Shown here piece after piece: positions 1,915 to 16,348 of a stretch of 25,011 nucleotides of DNA. The stretch lies in IMG/VR virus record IMGVR_UViG_3300023284_002989, one strand, 5' to 3'. Made by a program: the position numbers and the translations under genes. Below the pieces are notes generated by a model that searched no databases, was not told the origin of the DNA, and saw nothing but the letters and a program-made list of their open reading frames with translations. Source of the DNA: a virus. Each line of letters starts with the position of its first letter. The stretch's first letter is position 1.

Positions 1915-2280
1915 ATGAGTAATTGGGGAAGTGTCGAACCATTGGTCGAGAAGAACCACGTCTGCAAGGGGCTGGAGGATGAGCCCTGGTTTCGCATCAT
2001 CCAAGACGACGGGTGCTACATGCTGCTGCTGCACGTCCCAGACGACCCGAAGTATCCGGACGGGTGGCGGAACACCGATTGGATCTTCCCCGAGGCGTTT
2101 GACGAGCTGGTGAAGCTGCCCAGACCACGCGGTGCGATATATGACATCACGCGTGACGGTCCCCTGCCCGCAGGTAAGGATCACCACATCGGGTCGTTGG
2201 TTGCGCAGCGGCATGCCGACAACGAAAAAGACCGAGCTGAGATCGAGCGACGGTTGAAAGCCGAGAGCGATGGGAACTGA
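1915..2280 (+). CDS. hypothetical protein
   Basis: ATG preceded by the RBS cassette TAAGGGAGATTACAAATG. 121 aa. The stop lies inside the next gene's ATGGGAACTGA start motif. Confidence 0.65.
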   Translation: MSNWGSVEPLVEKNHVCKGLEDEPWFRIIQDDGCYMLLLHVPDDPKYPDGWRNTDWIFPEAFDELVKLPRPRGAIYDITRDGPLPAGKDHHIGSLVAQRHADNEKDRAEIERRLKAESDGN

Positions 2281-2545
2281 AACTCTGAAACCAGAGGTTG
2301 TTGACGCTGTGTGCAAGAACTACAGGGATCCAGGTGCGCCCGAATGTGCGAAGGCTCCAGATCCGAAGTACACCATGCGGTTTGATGACATCGGAAAGCC
2401 CCCGATCTACTGGTGTTCGGTGTGTGGCCCGGAGGCCAGCGCAATGGACAAGGCTCTGAATCGGGCGTTTGCCGCTGGTGGGCAGAAGTTCGTCGACAAG
2501 TTCCAGAAGGCGATGGACGACCATCCGTGTAAACATGGGAACTGA
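2270..2545 (+). CDS. MGTET-start small Cys-containing protein
   Basis: Starts ATGGGAACTGAAACT (MGTETL) with an 11-nt overlap on the upstream gene. Contains a CSVCG motif. 91 aa. Confidence 0.65.
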   Translation: MGTETLKPEVVDAVCKNYRDPGAPECAKAPDPKYTMRFDDIGKPPIYWCSVCGPEASAMDKALNRAFAAGGQKFVDKFQKAMDDHPCKHGN

Positions 2546-2750
2546 GACTGACCTACGAAAACATCCTGACGCGGTCAAGTGTGCCCATTGTGGTCGGGAG
2601 CTTGGGCATGTTGGCGGGTTCTGCCTGGGTCGGGATCTGTTGCCGATGTTCGAGCATCCAGAGGTTGTGCCCTTGAAGCCGCCCCGAATATTCTGTGGCC
2701 TGTGCGTTATCGTGCCGGGCTGGACAATACTGTTGGAGGAAATTCAATGA
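2535..2750 (+). CDS. MGTET-start zinc-ribbon-like protein
   Basis: Internal ATG at 2535 of track ORF 2469-2750, chosen because it recreates the ATGGGAACTGAGACTGA start and the 11-nt overlap. Contains KCAHCG...FCGLC. Confidence 0.6.
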   Translation: MGTETDLRKHPDAVKCAHCGRELGHVGGFCLGRDLLPMFEHPEVVPLKPPRIFCGLCVIVPGWTILLEEIQ

Positions 2751-3175
2751 ATAGTTGGTCGGATCTCGAAAAGAAGAACTTATCACCAGAGCAGATCGCA
2801 GAAGCCGAACGAGAAGCAACGGCTATCGCAGCTGAGATTGACAAGCTGTCGCGGAAACGGATTGCGGAGTCGATTGCGCATCACGAGGGGAAACTGACTG
2901 AGGCGCAGCAAGCTGGGGATGAGCTGAAGGCTGCCAGGCGAGAGGGTGCGATTTCTGCCCTGAGCTGGGTTCAGATGCTTGAGTATGAGCCTGAAGAATC
3001 ACGCAGGGGACTGGAAGAGCGTGTGTGCGACCGCGTGATGTTCGAGTGTCGACGGTCGGGTATCAGTGAAGGTAAAGAGAGGGTTCTCGTGGGGGCAGTG
3101 CGAAGTGCATTCCAGCCGGATCCCCCTGGACCTCCGAACCCTCCACTTCCTCCCCGCAGCATGCCTGTGGGCTGA
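2747..3175 (+). CDS. coiled-coil protein with Pro-rich C-terminus
   Basis: ATGA overlap at 2747. E/A/K-rich helical sequence followed by PDPPGPPNPPLPP. 142 aa. Confidence 0.6.
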   Translation: MNSWSDLEKKNLSPEQIAEAEREATAIAAEIDKLSRKRIAESIAHHEGKLTEAQQAGDELKAARREGAISALSWVQMLEYEPEESRRGLEERVCDRVMFECRRSGISEGKERVLVGAVRSAFQPDPPGPPNPPLPPRSMPVG

Positions 3176-3381
3176 TGGGAACTGAGACTGATCAGGTACT
3201 GGTGCCTGTGTCGCGGTGCGATCATTGCCATTTCATGGACAAGCGGGAGGTGGAGGGAGACCAGGAGCATTGGATTTGCATGAAGGTCCCAATCTCAGGA
3301 GACGATGAAAGCACTGCTCTGATCGGCATTCGCAAGTGGGGGGACTACCCTGCGATCCCAGACTGGTGCCCGTTTCGGTGA
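3175..3381 (+). CDS. MGTET-start Cys/His-rich small protein
   Basis: TGATG overlap. Starts ATGGGAACTGAGACTGA (MGTETD). Contains RCDHCH ... WCPF. 68 aa. Confidence 0.65.
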   Translation: MGTETDQVLVPVSRCDHCHFMDKREVEGDQEHWICMKVPISGDDESTALIGIRKWGDYPAIPDWCPFR

Positions 3382-3566
3382 CGCGGGCACAGAAATGGCA
3401 GCAGTGGATCGAGCAGTGGACCGAGCTGCATGAGTACCTGGCCTGGGTGATGAAGAGGGCTGCGTACTCGATTGAGGACAAGGATCCCAAAGAGATACGA
3501 GATCAGTGGATGGAGGAAATGCATGAGGCAGCTGCAGACTGGGATGAATTTCTGTCCCACAGGTGA
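3378..3566 (+). CDS. hypothetical W/E-rich helical protein
   Basis: GTG at 3378 overlaps the upstream TGA (GTGA); the track start at 3336 would overlap by 46 nt. 62 aa. Followed by a terminator. Confidence 0.5.
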   Translation: MTRAQKWQQWIEQWTELHEYLAWVMKRAAYSIEDKDPKEIRDQWMEEMHEAAADWDEFLSHR

Positions 3567-3624
3567 GAAAGAAATTCCCACGGATGGGAATGTTTTTCCT
3601 GTGGGTGGGACAGTTTTTCTCTTT
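3552..3624 (+). terminator. compound intrinsic terminator
   Basis: Inner hairpin ATTCCCA-cgga-TGGGAAT (3574-3591) is followed by GTTTTT. Outer stem CTGTCCCAC (3552-3560) pairs with GTGGGACAG (3605-3613) and is followed by TTTTTCTCTTT. Confidence 0.6.
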
Positions 3625-3651
3625 CGATCCCACCTGCGGGTGTGGTAAGTT
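3622..3651 (+). promoter_or_regulatory. conserved promoter cassette, copy P1
   Basis: -35 TTTCGA (3622-3627), 18-nt spacer ending GTGG, -10 TAAGTT (3646-3651). ATG at 3660, only 8 nt past the -10. Aligns with P2-P5. Confidence 0.6.
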
Positions 3652-3659
3652 CTCTCTTG

Positions 3660-14904: not shown

Positions 14905-14942
14905 TGCCGTGGGAATACGAACAGATCGAGAGGAGCTGAGCA

Positions 14943-15404
14943 ATGTTTGAATTTGCGATATATACAGACTGGGATTGGTTCTTCTTCGTGGTGGCGTGCG
15001 GTCTCACGCATCTGGCGTTTGGCGCACATGTGATGTTGCGGTTCTTCCAGTTGTTGGGCTACTGCAAGTTGAACAGCGGCAACGTAGGTGACAACCAAGG
15101 CAACTTCCTTCTGATTGTGGTGTTTTGGCCTTTCCTGCTTGTGCTTCCTGCATTGTATTGGATTCTGTGGTTTGTGTGCTCACCGCGCAACGCCGTGAAT
15201 CATGTCCTAAACCAATGGTCTGATGGGGTCGAATGGAAGGACACACGTCTGGGCCTGCATTCTGAGATCAAGAAGTTGGCAAAGGAACGAGACGAGGTGC
15301 AGGAGAAGCTGGACTACTATGAAGCTCCCGCGCCACAGACCAATGGTCCGTTCCGCTCGAAGCACACCAAAGGCAATATCAGGCAGGAAAGCGAACAGTA
15401 TTGA
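14943..15404 (+). CDS. membrane protein (2-3 predicted TM helices) with helical tail
   Basis: RBS GAGAGGAG upstream. Hydrophobic stretches WDWFFFVVACGLTHLAFGAHVML and FLLIVVFWPFLLVLPALYWILWFV. 153 aa. Confidence 0.65.
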   Translation: MFEFAIYTDWDWFFFVVACGLTHLAFGAHVMLRFFQLLGYCKLNSGNVGDNQGNFLLIVVFWPFLLVLPALYWILWFVCSPRNAVNHVLNQWSDGVEWKDTRLGLHSEIKKLAKERDEVQEKLDYYEAPAPQTNGPFRSKHTKGNIRQESEQY

Positions 15405-15420
15405 CGGTAGGGTTGACCTG

Positions 15421-15651
15421 ATGGACAACGAGAGTCTTCTCCCAGAAGCTGTGGAAAACTATCCTGTTGGTGCACTCCTACACAGGAACGTGGCTAGCAT
15501 TTCTAGTTTGACCTGTCATGTGATCCAGCATTTCTACAGCAAACAGTACCGAGAACATCGGGTCAAACTGGCGTGGAGCAACGGCAACAACAACGACTGG
15601 ACAGCACGCAGCGTTATGAGTGAGCTTAAAACCGATACGCTGGAGTTCTGA
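15421..15651 (+). CDS. PVG-family small protein #4 (TLEF tag)
   Basis: ATG at 15421 within track ORF 15223-15651. AVENYPVGALL...CHVIQHFYSKQYREHRVKLAWSNGNNNDWTARSVMSELKTDTLEF. Confidence 0.65.
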   Translation: MDNESLLPEAVENYPVGALLHRNVASISSLTCHVIQHFYSKQYREHRVKLAWSNGNNNDWTARSVMSELKTDTLEF

Positions 15652-15875
15652 TGGAGGTTGTCAGGCTTCCGGAGGGCTGGGAGTTCTGTACACCGGAGCA
15701 GGCTCTGTTCCAGCTTCCCAACGGTAATTGGCAGTCGTTTTACTGGTTGCAGGATTCAATTCACACGATGGGCTATATGGAAAGCAAGGACAACGCGCTG
15801 ATGCTCGCCAGAGCGAAGGACAGAGGATTGCCCTTGCGGCGCAGGCGCGGAGCAGAAATTGTGCAGGTAGGATGA
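15651..15875 (+). CDS. hypothetical protein
   Basis: TGATG overlap. 74 aa. No family recognised. Confidence 0.6.
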   Translation: MEVVRLPEGWEFCTPEQALFQLPNGNWQSFYWLQDSIHTMGYMESKDNALMLARAKDRGLPLRRRRGAEIVQVG

Positions 15876-16084
15876 TGCCTAAAAAGTTGGAAAAGTGTCC
15901 CTGTTGCAAGGGCAGCGGAATACGCCCTGAACACCATTCTATTTTGGAGCCGTGTTCCGATCCTGAATCCCACAAGTTGTCGGAGGAAGAGATACAGGAA
16001 GCGATACGAAAGGGGGAGGAAGATTTTCGGAGAGCGTCTTCTGTTCACCCAGCGTTGCGATTGTCTGGAATCTTCTACAAATAA
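15872..16084 (+). CDS. small protein with a DnaJ-type CxxCxGxG motif
   Basis: ATGA overlap at 15872. MMPKKLEKCPCCKGSG... 70 aa. Confidence 0.55.
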   Translation: MMPKKLEKCPCCKGSGIRPEHHSILEPCSDPESHKLSEEEIQEAIRKGEEDFRRASSVHPALRLSGIFYK

Positions 16085-16087
16085 GTG

Positions 16088-16348
16088 ATGACTGAGACTG
16101 ATAAATCGCTGGGCAAGTACATGTTCAGCAGACTCTGGCCTGTGTTGGGCAGAAAGACGCAGCGTTGGGCCATCTACTCGAAGAGTTCTGGCACGGTTCT
16201 CGGAGTAGCCCAATGGTTTGGACGCTGGAGGCAATACTGTTTCGAACCTGCACAGAGCACGATTTTCAACCAGGGCTGTCTCGATGAAATAGCTGGATTC
16301 CTGCGGAACGCCAATGCGGAACACCGTGCAAAGAGGAACGCGGCATGA
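16088..16348 (+). CDS. MTETD-start hypothetical protein
   Basis: ATGACTGAGACTGATAAA start; GTG 16085 is the alternative. 86 aa. W/R-rich (VAQWFGRWRQYCFEP). Confidence 0.6.
   Translation: MTETDKSLGKYMFSRLWPVLGRKTQRWAIYSKSSGTVLGVAQWFGRWRQYCFEPAQSTIFNQGCLDEIAGFLRNANAEHRAKRNAA

What the first reader, a model, noticed from the sequence alone, without database searches (positions are those of the whole stretch)
2270..16105. Recurrent N-terminal M-(G/E/S)-T-E-T motif, a 17-nt repeat and 11-nt gene overlaps
Seen: ATGGGAACTGAGACTGA occurs at 2535 and 3175, and ATGGGAACTGAAACTCTGA at 2270.

Related starts:
- ATGGAAACTGAGACTGAGAAA (7896)
- GTGGAGACTGAGAAA (8140)
- ATGACTGAGACTGATAAA (16088)
- ATGTCTGAGACTGGTAAA (3660)
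- GTGGGAACTAAGACTGGGAAA (6031)

Eight unrelated-looking proteins therefore begin MGTET / METET / MTETD / MSETG.

At 2270, 2535 and 9283 (ATGGCGACTGA), the upstream gene terminates on the TGA inside this motif. This gives identical 11-nt overlaps.

The core ACTGAGAC is also shared with the C-terminal tag DNA (for example ACTGAGACGATGGAGTTCTGATG at 9511-9533).

Inference: the motif could be an N-terminal peptide signal, a downstream-box-like translation element, or short boundary repeats that promote cassette shuffling between genes.
Basis: seen in the sequence. Interest (0 to 1): 0.5.

Follow-up and report, generated by a model that had tools for sequence, protein, structure and literature searches.

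The report
Recurrent start-of-gene motif in phage
Several small, mostly unrelated genes in this uncultured phage fragment begin with nearly the same 15-17 bases (ATG GGA ACT GAG ACT GA), a real, non-random feature that most likely helps ribosomes start on genes lacking a normal ribosome-binding site, but it is a modest curiosity and its function has not been shown.

Summary
Every coordinate checks out. The 17-mer and its core are far commoner than shuffles predict. Of the 12 best + strand matches, 8 sit on gene starts, and the - strand has none. Five of 71 genes carry ACT-GAR-ACT within codons 2-7, against 0.08 expected.

Conservation is at the nucleotide level:
- Every Thr is ACT and every following Lys is AAA. 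Both are minor codons in gene bodies, but both are favoured in codons 2-7 across the contig.
- The amino acids drift (E to K; D/E/G/L after TET).
- In two proteins with many homologues the motif is an add-on in front of the conserved domain.
- Motif genes mostly lack a Shine-Dalgarno-like sequence (1 of 10 against 32 of 61).
- In 5 of 8 genes the native codons fold less than at least 94% of synonymous recodings.

Best reading: a start-anchored 5' coding module that serves SD-independent initiation on coupled or near-leaderless genes and spread by local duplication. A peptide signal is less likely. Cassette shuffling at the motif could not be tested, because the only relative found (793 bp) is mosaic at other sites. 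Not all eight proteins are unrelated. Interest is modest.

The parts
2270..2286 (+). Motif copy ATGGGAACTGAAACTCT, start of g2270 (MGTETLK). The upstream gene g1915 stops on the internal TGA (2278-2280), giving an 11-nt overlap.
   Evidence: The exact 91-aa protein is in the JGI-derived collection.
2535..2551 (+). Exact 17-mer ATGGGAACTGAGACTGA, start of g2535 (MGTETD). g2270 stops on the TGA at 2543-2545, giving an 11-nt overlap. A second TGA in the same frame follows at 2549-2551.
   Evidence: The start is inferred from identity with 3175. The exact 71-aa protein read from 2535 is not in the JGI-derived collection.
3175..3191 (+). Exact 17-mer, start of g3175 (MGTETD). It is the first start codon in its ORF and overlaps the g2747 stop by 1 nt (TGATG).
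7896..7916 (+). ATGGAAACTGAGACTGAGAAA, start of g7896 (METETEK). It has an SD-like GGAG 8 nt upstream. The motif is part of an 11-residue extension that actinophage homologues lack.
8140..8154 (+). GTGGAGACTGAGAAA, inferred GTG start of g8140 (ETEK), 4 nt after the g7896 stop. It shares the 12 nt GAGACTGAGAAA with g7896.
   Evidence: The start is inferred.
16088..16105 (+). ATGACTGAGACTGATAAA, start of g16088 (MTETDK). The motif forms the variable lead-in ahead of the conserved core (LGKYM...) of a large uncharacterised family.
3660..3677 (+). ATGTCTGAGACTGGTAAA, start of g3660 (MSETGK). It lies 8 nt after a -10-like TAAGTT. This stretch and the promoter-like region are 96% identical in the relative L002, while the next 105 nt are 69% identical.
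6031..6051 (+). GTGGGAACTAAGACTGGGAAA, inferred GTG start of g6031 (GTKTGK), a paralogue of g3660.
   Evidence: The collection's gene call for this ORF starts at 5995 instead.
5432..5448 (+). Weaker relative ATGGGAAATGAAATTGG (4 mismatches), start of the Tat-signal protein g5432, 6 nt after a -10-like TAGGTT.
10235..10251 (+). Weaker relative ATGGGAAATGGTACTGG (4 mismatches), start of g10235, 11 nt after a -10-like TATAGT.
9283..9293 (+). ATGGCGACTGA, the third 11-nt stop/start overlap (g9084 / g9283, MATD). It shares only ATGG..ACTGA with the motif.
9511..9533 (+). C-terminal tag DNA ACTGAGACGATGGAGTTCTGATG (TETMEF stop/start). It is the only tag that contains the 8-mer ACTGAGAC.

Best explanation
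**What it is.** The motif is a start-codon-anchored piece of 5' coding sequence with consensus RTG-(GGA)-ACT-GAG-ACT-GRN-(AAA). It is selected at the mRNA level, not as a peptide.

**Where it sits.** The setting is a tightly packed, one-strand block of small accessory genes in an uncultured phage. About half the genes in that block have no Shine-Dalgarno-like sequence. Many of them must start by re-initiation at stop/start overlaps or on near-leaderless transcripts.

**How it is built.**
- The module is made of the codons this genome prefers right after the start (GGA, ACT, AAA).
- It is purine-rich, and its codon choice lowers predicted folding around the start in most copies.
- It precedes the folded domain as a short add-on.

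**Inferred function and spread.** I infer that it is a favoured 'good start' sequence for SD-independent initiation. It may be read sequence-specifically by the ribosome or by a regulator. I also infer that it multiplied by local tandem duplication and by retention of the resident 5' end when gene bodies diverged or were replaced.

**Shown:** start anchoring, non-randomness, conservation of synonymous sites, add-on status, depletion of SD-like sequence, and lower predicted folding. **Inferred:** that it raises or regulates translation, and how it spread.
For: - **Enrichment and start specificity.**
  - 17-mer within 3 mismatches: 5 copies against 0.12 expected.
  - 8-mer: 6 copies against 1.08 expected.
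  - Eight of 12 + strand hits at up to 5 mismatches are at gene starts, and the - strand has none.
  - ACT-GAR-ACT lies within codons 2-7 in 5 of 71 genes, against 0.08 expected. No permutation of 200,000 gave more than 3.
- **Nucleotide-level conservation.**
  - All five N-terminal TET tripeptides use ACT-GAR-ACT. ACT is 18% of Thr codons in gene bodies. Of the four TETs elsewhere in the proteins, three end in ACG and one (20485) also uses ACT-GAG-ACT.
  - The Lys that follows is AAA in 6 of 6 copies, against 25% in bodies.
  - The left edge of identity is always the start codon, with no flanking similarity.
- **The same codon bias in non-motif genes, codons 2-7**:
  - ACT 10 of 26.
  - AAA 19 of 42.
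  - GGA 9 of 19.
  - AGT 12 of 28.
- **Folding.**
  - The native sequence is less folded than at least 94% of synonymous recodings in 5 of 8 motif genes.
  - Start regions overall are less folded than random windows, -13.0 against -15.6 kcal/mol.
- **SD-like sequence upstream.** It is present in 1 of 10 motif or motif-like genes against 32 of 61 others, Fisher p=0.016.
- **Add-on status.**
  - g7896 homologues in actinophages start M-[SA]-HHPAT with no extension.
  - Homologues of g16088 have variable 1-8 residue lead-ins before the conserved core.
- **Relative L002.** The promoter-like region plus the first 13 codons of g3660 are 96% identical, and the next 105 nt are 69% identical.
Against: - There is no functional evidence.
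- Mean folding energy of motif genes (-12.3) does not differ from other starts (-13.0). In 3 of 8 copies the native codons are not less folded than recodings.
- A mere need for open, A-rich starts would not demand one specific string. Something else must be added, such as common descent or sequence-specific recognition.
- The instances are not independent. There is one probable tandem trio, one paralogue pair and one adjacent pair, so there may be as few as four origins.
- M-[TS]-E starts are common anyway. About a quarter of g16088 homologues have one.
- The SD association is weak: p=0.016, or 0.06 for the original eight genes.
- g7896 has both an SD-like sequence and the motif.
- At 2270 and 2535 the first 11 nt are also constrained by dual coding.
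Confidence: 0.45

Rival explanations
1. Descent without function. The shared starts are leftovers of tandem duplication and of 5'-end retention. They were preserved for other reasons: dual coding in the 11-nt overlaps and the general bias of early codons. The string itself does nothing specific.
For: - Three copies lie within 1 kb. They encode small Cys-rich proteins with similar Cys spacing and a KPPxxxCxxC similarity.
- g3660 and g6031 are paralogues.
- g7896 and g8140 are adjacent.
- The first 11 nt at 2270 and 2535 are dual-coding.
- The contig is rich in paralogue families.
Against: - The 2535 and 3175 copies are 17/17 identical, with all four synonymous sites the same. Everything around them, including the rest of the genes, is unalignable.
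- 3175 is not in an 11-nt overlap.
- g7896 and g16088 belong to unrelated families, yet carry the same 11 nt as an add-on.
- 17 nt is short for gene conversion.
Confidence: 0.2
2. Portable gene-junction repeats. The shared start sequence acts as microhomology at which gene cassettes are inserted, deleted or swapped, leaving the upstream stop and the downstream start intact. This would be a coding-sequence counterpart of the PeSL cassettes of T4-type phages.
For: - The exact 17-mers at 2535 and 3175 flank a two-gene unit. The 2270 and 2535 copies flank a single gene. Recombination between copies would give intact junctions.
- The lineage is mosaic on a scale of tens of bases. L002 has an extra 45-aa gene and a different 5' half of g3378.
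- PeSL-mediated shuffling is documented in T4-type phages (PMC2839356).
Against: - No breakpoint has been observed at the motif. The two L002 breakpoints lie at window ~3402 and between a terminator and a promoter-like cassette.
- The repeats always end exactly at the start codon, which points to translation more than to recombination.
- The copies at 7896, 8140 and 16088 are scattered.
- No further relatives could be found to test this.
Confidence: 0.15
3. N-terminal peptide signal. M-(G/E/S)-T-E-T would be recognised as a peptide for targeting, packaging, processing or turnover, as the capsid targeting sequence is shared by otherwise diverse T4 internal proteins.
For: - It is an add-on ahead of folded domains in unrelated proteins.
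- There is one synonymous difference (GAG/GAA) and a GAC/GAT difference between copies.
- The same contig uses other terminal peptide tags: 13 C-terminal ETMEF-like ends with varied codons, and Tat signals.
- T4 CTS precedent (PMC3012670).
Against: - Codons are fixed to minor ones (ACT, AAA, GGA), while the chemistry drifts: E to K in g6031, and D/D/E/L/G/G after TET.
- Residue 2 varies between G, E, S and none, so Met removal would differ between copies.
- The register relative to Met shifts.
- Five residues is very short for a signal.
- The C-terminal tags show the opposite pattern, with a conserved peptide and varying codons. That is what a real peptide signal in this genome looks like.
Confidence: 0.12
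4. Out-of-frame stop trap. ACTGAGACTGA places two TGA codons in the +2 frame, to terminate upstream genes or frameshifted ribosomes.
For: - At 2270 and 2535 the upstream gene does stop on the first TGA. At 2535 a second TGA follows one codon later.
- At 16093-16104 three stops (TGA GAC TGA TAA) lie in one frame.
Against: - At 3175, 7896 and 16088 no upstream gene reads in that frame.
- nnT|GAn junctions are not enriched in gene bodies, 183 observed against 181.7 expected.
- ACT is not preferred before D or E, 9 of 55.
Confidence: 0.04
5. Chance or plain codon usage.
For: M-[TS]-E starts are common in small proteins. Early codons are biased toward ACT, AAA and GGA.
Against: Expected 0.08 genes against 5 observed, and none of 200,000 permutations reached even 4. 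Shuffle controls agree, as do the strand and start specificity.
Confidence: 0.02

Closest known systems
Selection on the first ~10 codons for weak mRNA structure and A-rich, rare codons (a general bacterial and phage phenomenon; from my own knowledge of the literature, not looked up here)
   Same: Rare A/T-richer codons (ACT, AAA, GGA, AGT) are enriched in codons 2-7 across the contig. Start regions fold less than random windows. The native motif folds less than most synonymous recodings.
   Different: The general phenomenon gives a compositional bias, not one specific 11-17 nt string repeated at the start of unrelated genes.
Downstream box and other post-AUG translation enhancers (proposed for T7 and lambda genes and for leaderless mRNAs; the base-pairing model was later disputed; from my own knowledge)
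   Same: A short sequence just 3' of the start codon, in phage genes, some of them SD-less or near-leaderless.
   Different: No complementarity to 16S rRNA could be tested because the host is unknown. The motif starts at +4, and there are no functional data.
PeSL cassettes (promoter-early plus stem-loop) of T4-type phages, PMC2839356 and PMC4122927
   Same: Short repeated regulatory sequences at the boundaries of small ORFan genes in a hyperplastic accessory region. Closely related genomes there are mosaic.
   Different: PeSLs are intergenic sigma-70-like promoters with terminator stem-loops. The MGTET motif lies inside coding sequence and has neither. This contig separately carries PeSL-like terminator and promoter-like cassettes (3574-3659, 5355-5431 and others), and the L002 indel is at one of those, not at the motif.
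Capsid targeting sequence (CTS) of T4 internal proteins, PMC3012670
   Same: Otherwise diverse phage proteins share only a short conserved N-terminal sequence.
   Different: The CTS is about 10 residues and acts as a peptide that directs encapsidation. Here conservation is at codon level and the residues drift. Nothing links these proteins to the virion.
Translational operators of phage repressors such as T4 RegA (from my own knowledge)
   Same: A loosely conserved RNA sequence that overlaps the AUG of several unrelated genes.
   Different: No RegA-like or other RNA-binding regulator was detected in the window. The contig is only part of the genome, and binding is untested.

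Membership tests
5'-CDS codon/structure bias (translation-initiation-region optimisation) | Rare, A/T-richer codons enriched in the first few codons relative to gene bodies | tested here: met
   Non-motif genes, codons 2-7 against bodies: ACT 38% vs 18%, AAA 45% vs 25%, GGA 47% vs 19%, AGT 43% vs 11%. Base A is 33% vs 24%.
5'-CDS codon/structure bias (translation-initiation-region optimisation) | Start region less structured than synonymous alternatives | tested here: inconclusive
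   Met in 5 of 8 motif genes, where the native sequence folds less than at least 94% of recodings. Not met in 3. Mean dG of motif genes equals that of other starts.
Downstream box | Complementarity to a defined 16S rRNA segment of the host | not testable with these tools
   The host and its 16S rRNA are unknown, and no relative in a genome was found.
Downstream box | Located just downstream of the start codon and enhances translation | tested here: inconclusive
   The location is met, at +4 to +17. Enhancement cannot be tested in silico.
PeSL-type mobile regulatory cassette | Intergenic sigma-70-like promoter combined with a stem-loop terminator | tested here: not met
   The motif is inside coding sequence, overlaps the upstream gene at 2270 and 2535, and has no promoter-like or hairpin element next to it.
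PeSL-type mobile regulatory cassette | Insertions, deletions or replacements between close relatives are bounded by the repeats | tested here: inconclusive
   The only relative (L002, 793 bp) does not cover 2270-3191. Its breakpoints lie at ~3402 and at a terminator/promoter-like cassette.
T4-like capsid targeting sequence / N-terminal peptide signal | Conservation at the peptide level (conservative substitutions, free synonymous codons) | tested here: not met
   Codons are fixed (ACT, AAA, GGA), while residues change charge or class: E to K, and D/E/G/L.
T4-like capsid targeting sequence / N-terminal peptide signal | Bearers are packaged or processed | not testable with these tools
   This needs proteomics.
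RegA-type translational operator | Shared RNA motif overlapping the AUG of several unrelated genes | tested here: met
RegA-type translational operator | A cognate RNA-binding repressor encoded by the phage | tested here: inconclusive
   No such domain was found among the window's proteins. The window is only a 25-kb fragment of ORFans.
Translational coupling by stop/start overlap | The upstream stop codon lies within or next to the downstream start | tested here: met
   Overlaps are -11 at 2270, 2535 and 9283, and -1 at 3175. Most other genes overlap by -1 or -4.
Out-of-frame stop ('ambush') enrichment | General excess of off-frame stops at codon junctions | tested here: not met
   183 observed against 181.7 expected nnT|GAn junctions.

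The most novel reading that the evidence does not exclude
The string AUG-GGA-ACU-GAG-ACU-GA is a sequence-specific signal, not merely an open start. It would be either an enhancer of SD-independent (70S-type, re-initiating or leaderless) initiation in the unknown host, or the operator of a phage-encoded translational regulator that co-controls a set of small accessory genes. It would also double as a portable junction that lets such genes be swapped without breaking their neighbours.
Probability: 0.15. Interest if true: 0.6.

Novelty: new variant of a known kind. Interest (0 to 1): 0.35.

Why it matters
If the motif does drive or regulate SD-independent initiation, it would be a compact, transferable 'start module' from a poorly known phage lineage that carries a major-vault-protein homologue. 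That would be useful for understanding how hundreds of tiny phage ORFan genes get expressed without ribosome-binding sites, and possibly as an expression tag.

If it marks recombination junctions, it would extend the PeSL idea of mobile regulatory cassettes to the translational level.

As it stands, it shows that the first five codons of phage mini-genes can be under stronger nucleotide-level constraint than the rest of the gene. It also warns that shared N-termini need not be peptide signals.

Tried and rejected
**Searches for relatives**
- Megablast of the window against phage GenBank records found nothing.
- The MVP protein finds only relatives of 47% identity or less.
  - One of them, L001, has strong SD sequences and no terminal motifs.
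  - For the other, P0003, no DNA could be retrieved.
- A profile of the ETMEF paralogue family finds only this contig plus one 793-bp ENA contig.
This was probably a misuse of the tool.
- All motif proteins are singleton clusters.
- The 17-mer in IMG/VR gave 5 unrelated hits, about the chance level.
- The C-terminal-tag DNA pattern gave 0 viral hits and 6 unrelated metagenome hits.
- Family searches in GTDB genomes and IMG/VR gave only spurious short hits.

**Other checks**
- Rfam reports nothing at the motif.
- The sigma-70 consensus scan does not pick up the repeated promoter-like cassettes, so calling them promoters rests on inspection only.

**Ideas considered and rejected**
- **Programmed +1 frameshift at AAC-UGA-G, fusing neighbouring genes.** The frames fit, but AAC to ACU is not a slippery shift, and an in-frame ATG is present each time.
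- **Recoded TGA.** The 899-aa MVP ORF and the systematic ATGA/TGATG overlaps fit the standard code.
- **Internal promoters at 2270, 2535 and 3175.** No -10 or -35-like elements are present.
- **Eukaryote-type N-myristoylation (MG...).** The position-6 requirement is not met and the gene organisation is bacterial.
- **Identity or complementarity to conserved 16S rRNA stretches.** I recalled these from memory only. I did not pursue them because the host is unknown and short matches are expected by chance.

Full report
**Context**

The window is a complete 25,011-bp JGI metagenome contig.
- All credible genes lie on the + strand. There are about 72 mostly very small ORFs.
- Most neighbours overlap by 1 nt (TGATG) or 4 nt (ATGA/GTGA). 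Three overlap by 11 nt.
- An 899-aa gene (11240-13939) is a major-vault-protein homologue with Pfam MVP_shoulder and Vault_3.
  - Its nearest relatives are only 47% identical.
  - By tblastn it matches three 'uncultured phage' records of 462-735 kb.
- Almost everything else is ORFan. The few family hits are a Lar-like restriction-alleviation protein, a Tat signal, two HTH/antitoxin-like domains and a handful of PHROG families of unknown function.
- One tRNA is present.
- This looks like a hyperplastic accessory region of an uncultured, probably large, phage.

Yes.
- The exact 17-mer ATGGGAACTGAGACTGA is at 2535 and 3175.
- With up to 3 mismatches there are five copies, against 0.12 expected.
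- ACTGAGAC occurs six times against 1.08 expected, always on the + strand.
- At up to 5 mismatches there are 12 + strand hits and none on the - strand. Eight of the 12 coincide with gene starts.
- Five of 71 genes carry ACT-GAR-ACT within codons 2-7. The expectation is 0.08, even when the codon frequencies are taken from the N-terminal codons themselves with the motif codons left in the pool. None of 200,000 permutations gave more than three.

Independent gene calls agree on the starts. The exact proteins read from 2270, 3175, 7896 and 9283 are in the JGI-derived collection.

**What needs correcting**
- The three 11-nt overlaps are equal in length, but only two share the same sequence. The copy at 9283 is ATGGCGACTGA.
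- The eight proteins are not all unrelated.
  - g3660 and g6031 are paralogues in a five-member family that ends in ETMEF-like tags.
  - The three MGTET proteins are adjacent small Cys-rich proteins with similar Cys spacing and a KPPxxxCxxC match. This is suggestive of old tandem duplication but not statistically secure.
  - g7896 and g8140 are neighbours.
  - There may therefore be only about four independent origins. Three independent TET starts would still be unexpected against the 0.08 expectation, since only 7 of 200,000 permutations reached three.
- The link to the C-terminal tag DNA is thin. Only the tag at 9511 contains ACTGAGAC. The other tags share GAGAC and spell Thr as ACG or ACA.

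**Nucleotide or peptide?**

The evidence favours the nucleotide level.
- Every N-terminal TET is ACT-GAR-ACT, although ACT is only 18% of Thr codons in gene bodies.
- Of the four TETs elsewhere in the proteins, three end in ACG. The fourth, at 20485, also uses ACT-GAG-ACT.
- The Lys that follows in six copies is always AAA, which is 25% of Lys codons in bodies.
- Gly is always GGA, which is 18% in bodies.
- The 2535 and 3175 copies are identical at all four synonymous sites. Yet the flanks and the rest of the genes cannot be aligned.
- The residues do drift: E to K in g6031, and D, D, E, L, G, G after TET. Residue 2 is G, E, S or absent.
- The C-terminal tags show the opposite pattern. The peptide M-[ED]-[FL] is kept while the codons vary (GAG TTC, GAA CTG, GAC CTG, GAT TTA). 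That is what a true peptide signal looks like in this genome.

**The motif is an add-on**
- g7896 belongs to a widespread phage family (phrog_5120, 337 phage records).
  - Actinophage homologues begin M-[SA]-HHPAT.
  - The window protein has eleven extra residues, ETETEKPAEDK, in front.
- g16088 belongs to a large uncharacterised family with 3,840 cluster representatives.
  - The conserved core begins at LGKYM.
  - Homologues have variable 1-8 residue lead-ins. About a quarter start M-[TS]-[ED], and none has TET.
  - So MTE-type starts are common in general. That tempers the count of surprising instances.

**Link to translation start**
- Non-motif genes also favour ACT, AAA, GGA and AGT in codons 2-7, and base A rises from 24% to 33%.
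- Start regions fold less than random windows, -13.0 against -15.6 kcal/mol.
- In 5 of 8 motif genes the native codons fold less than at least 94% of synonymous recodings. In the other three they do not, and motif genes as a group fold no less than other starts.
- Only 1 of 10 motif or motif-like genes has GGAG, GAGG or AGGA at -18 to -4, against 32 of 61 others. Fisher p is 0.016, or 0.06 for the original eight.
- Motif-bearing starts fall into three contexts:
  - coupled to an upstream stop (2270, 2535, 3175, 8140, 16088);
  - 6-11 nt after a repeated promoter-like element, (G)TTTTCTCTTGC-N~17-TGGTAGGTT, seen by inspection and as repeat family D3 (3660, 5432, 10235), which implies near-leaderless transcripts;
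  - neither: 6031 follows g5432 after a 17-nt gap, and 7896 follows g7561 after an 11-nt gap and has its own SD-like sequence.
- That promoter reading is an inference. The plain sigma-70 consensus scan does not detect these elements.

**Comparative evidence**

It is almost nil.
- The only relative found is L002, a 793-bp ENA contig.
- It keeps the promoter-like region plus the first 13 codons of g3660, motif included, at 96% identity. The next 105 nt are 69% identical.
- It is mosaic against the window in two ways.
  - Homology begins about 24 nt into g3378, with an unrelated 5' part.
  - It carries an extra 45-aa gene between the terminator hairpin and the promoter-like cassette.
- So recombination on a fine scale does occur in this lineage, at PeSL-like cassettes (PMC2839356). 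None of the observable breakpoints is at the MGTET motif, and the trio region is not covered.

**Conclusion**

The finding is real, start-specific and under nucleotide-level constraint.
- The best-supported reading (about 0.45) is a favoured 5' coding 'start module' for genes without an SD, multiplied by local duplication and by retention of the 5' end.
- The rivals are:
  - descent without function (0.2);
  - junction repeats for cassette exchange (0.15);
  - a peptide signal (0.12);
  - an off-frame stop trap (0.04), contradicted;
  - chance (0.02).
- It is a new variant of known kinds of feature, namely early-codon selection and repeated regulatory modules in phage hyperplastic regions. Without functional data its interest is modest.

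Noticed in passing
window gene ends at 386, 1902, 3896, 4667, 6264, 6407, 8618, 9531, 9920, 10707, 15651, 18028, 18246: Thirteen otherwise diverse small proteins end in [ET]-[TV]-M/L-[ED]-[FL] (ETMEF, ETMEL, EVMEL, ETMDL, DTLEF...). The peptide is kept while the codons vary (GAG TTC, GAA CTG, GAC CTG, GAT TTA), so this looks like a true C-terminal peptide tag. Its ATGGAG also supplies a GGAG just upstream of the next gene's start. It sits in a contig that encodes a major-vault-protein homologue.
   Followed up: partly
window 11240-13939: An 899-aa major-vault-protein homologue (MVP_shoulder, Vault_3) inside a phage-like block of ORFans. The closest relatives are 47% identical. Three 'uncultured phage' records of 462-735 kb (LR756500, LR756501, LR756503) carry homologues at 34-36% identity.
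   Followed up: partly
window 3574-3659, 5355-5431, 10185-10234, 19183-19226, 22809-22853: Repeated promoter-like element (G)TTTTCTCTTGC-N~17-TGGTAGGTT lying 6-11 nt before an ATG, which implies leaderless or near-leaderless mRNAs. Two copies directly follow terminator hairpins (3574-3598 and 5355-5397), resembling the PeSL cassettes of T4-type phages. The plain sigma-70 scan does not detect them.
   Followed up: partly
window 19227-19244 and 22854-22931: Two promoter-proximal mini-ORFs. ATGGGACTACGACTGTGA (MGLRL stop) overlaps the GTG start of g19241 by GTGA. A 25-codon ORF ends in GTGATG at the start of g22931. These may be leaderless 'starter' ORFs that feed downstream genes by re-initiation.
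   Followed up: no
L002 1-793 against window 3400-3940: The only relative found (ENA ERZ26800293, 793 bp) is mosaic. It has an unrelated 5' part in the g3378 orthologue, with a signal-peptide-like stretch. It has an extra 45-aa gene (L002 322-459, MSGKWKDL...) between the terminator and the promoter-like cassette. The middle of the g3660 orthologue is strongly diverged (69%) between near-identical ends.
   Followed up: yes
window 4971, 5432, 6410, 6761, 7296, 10709 (gene starts): Six small proteins begin with twin-arginine (Tat)-like signals (MKRRSILG..., MKRRTVIK..., MGNEIGRRAVLKG...). That is an unusual density of predicted exported proteins for a phage region. Pfam TAT_signal was matched by one of the 62 proteins scanned, and the output does not say which; all six are judged by eye.
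   Followed up: no
window 22723-22797: A tRNA-Ile with anticodon AAT (ARAGORN; Rfam tRNA 48.7 bits). An unmodified A34 Ile tRNA is unusual for bacteria and phages.
   Followed up: no
window 7561-7884 / 10235-10489; 1678-1902 / 6264-6407; 17313-17669 / 17669-18028: Further paralogue pairs within the contig (BLASTP E 2e-15, 2e-6, 2e-7). The region has grown by repeated duplication of mini-genes.
   Followed up: no
window 16088-16348: g16088 belongs to a large family of ~80-90 aa proteins (3,840 cluster representatives at E<=0.001; conserved motif WRQY.F, FN..CL) with no hit in Pfam or PHROGs at E<=0.1.
   Followed up: partly
L001 (Logan SRR12550822 contig, 22.6 kb around a 47%-identical MVP gene): A second MVP-carrying, one-strand, ORFan-rich phage-like contig. 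It uses strong GGAG(G) Shine-Dalgarno sequences and shows none of the N- or C-terminal motifs, so those motifs are specific to the window's lineage and not to MVP-carrying phages in general.
   Followed up: partly
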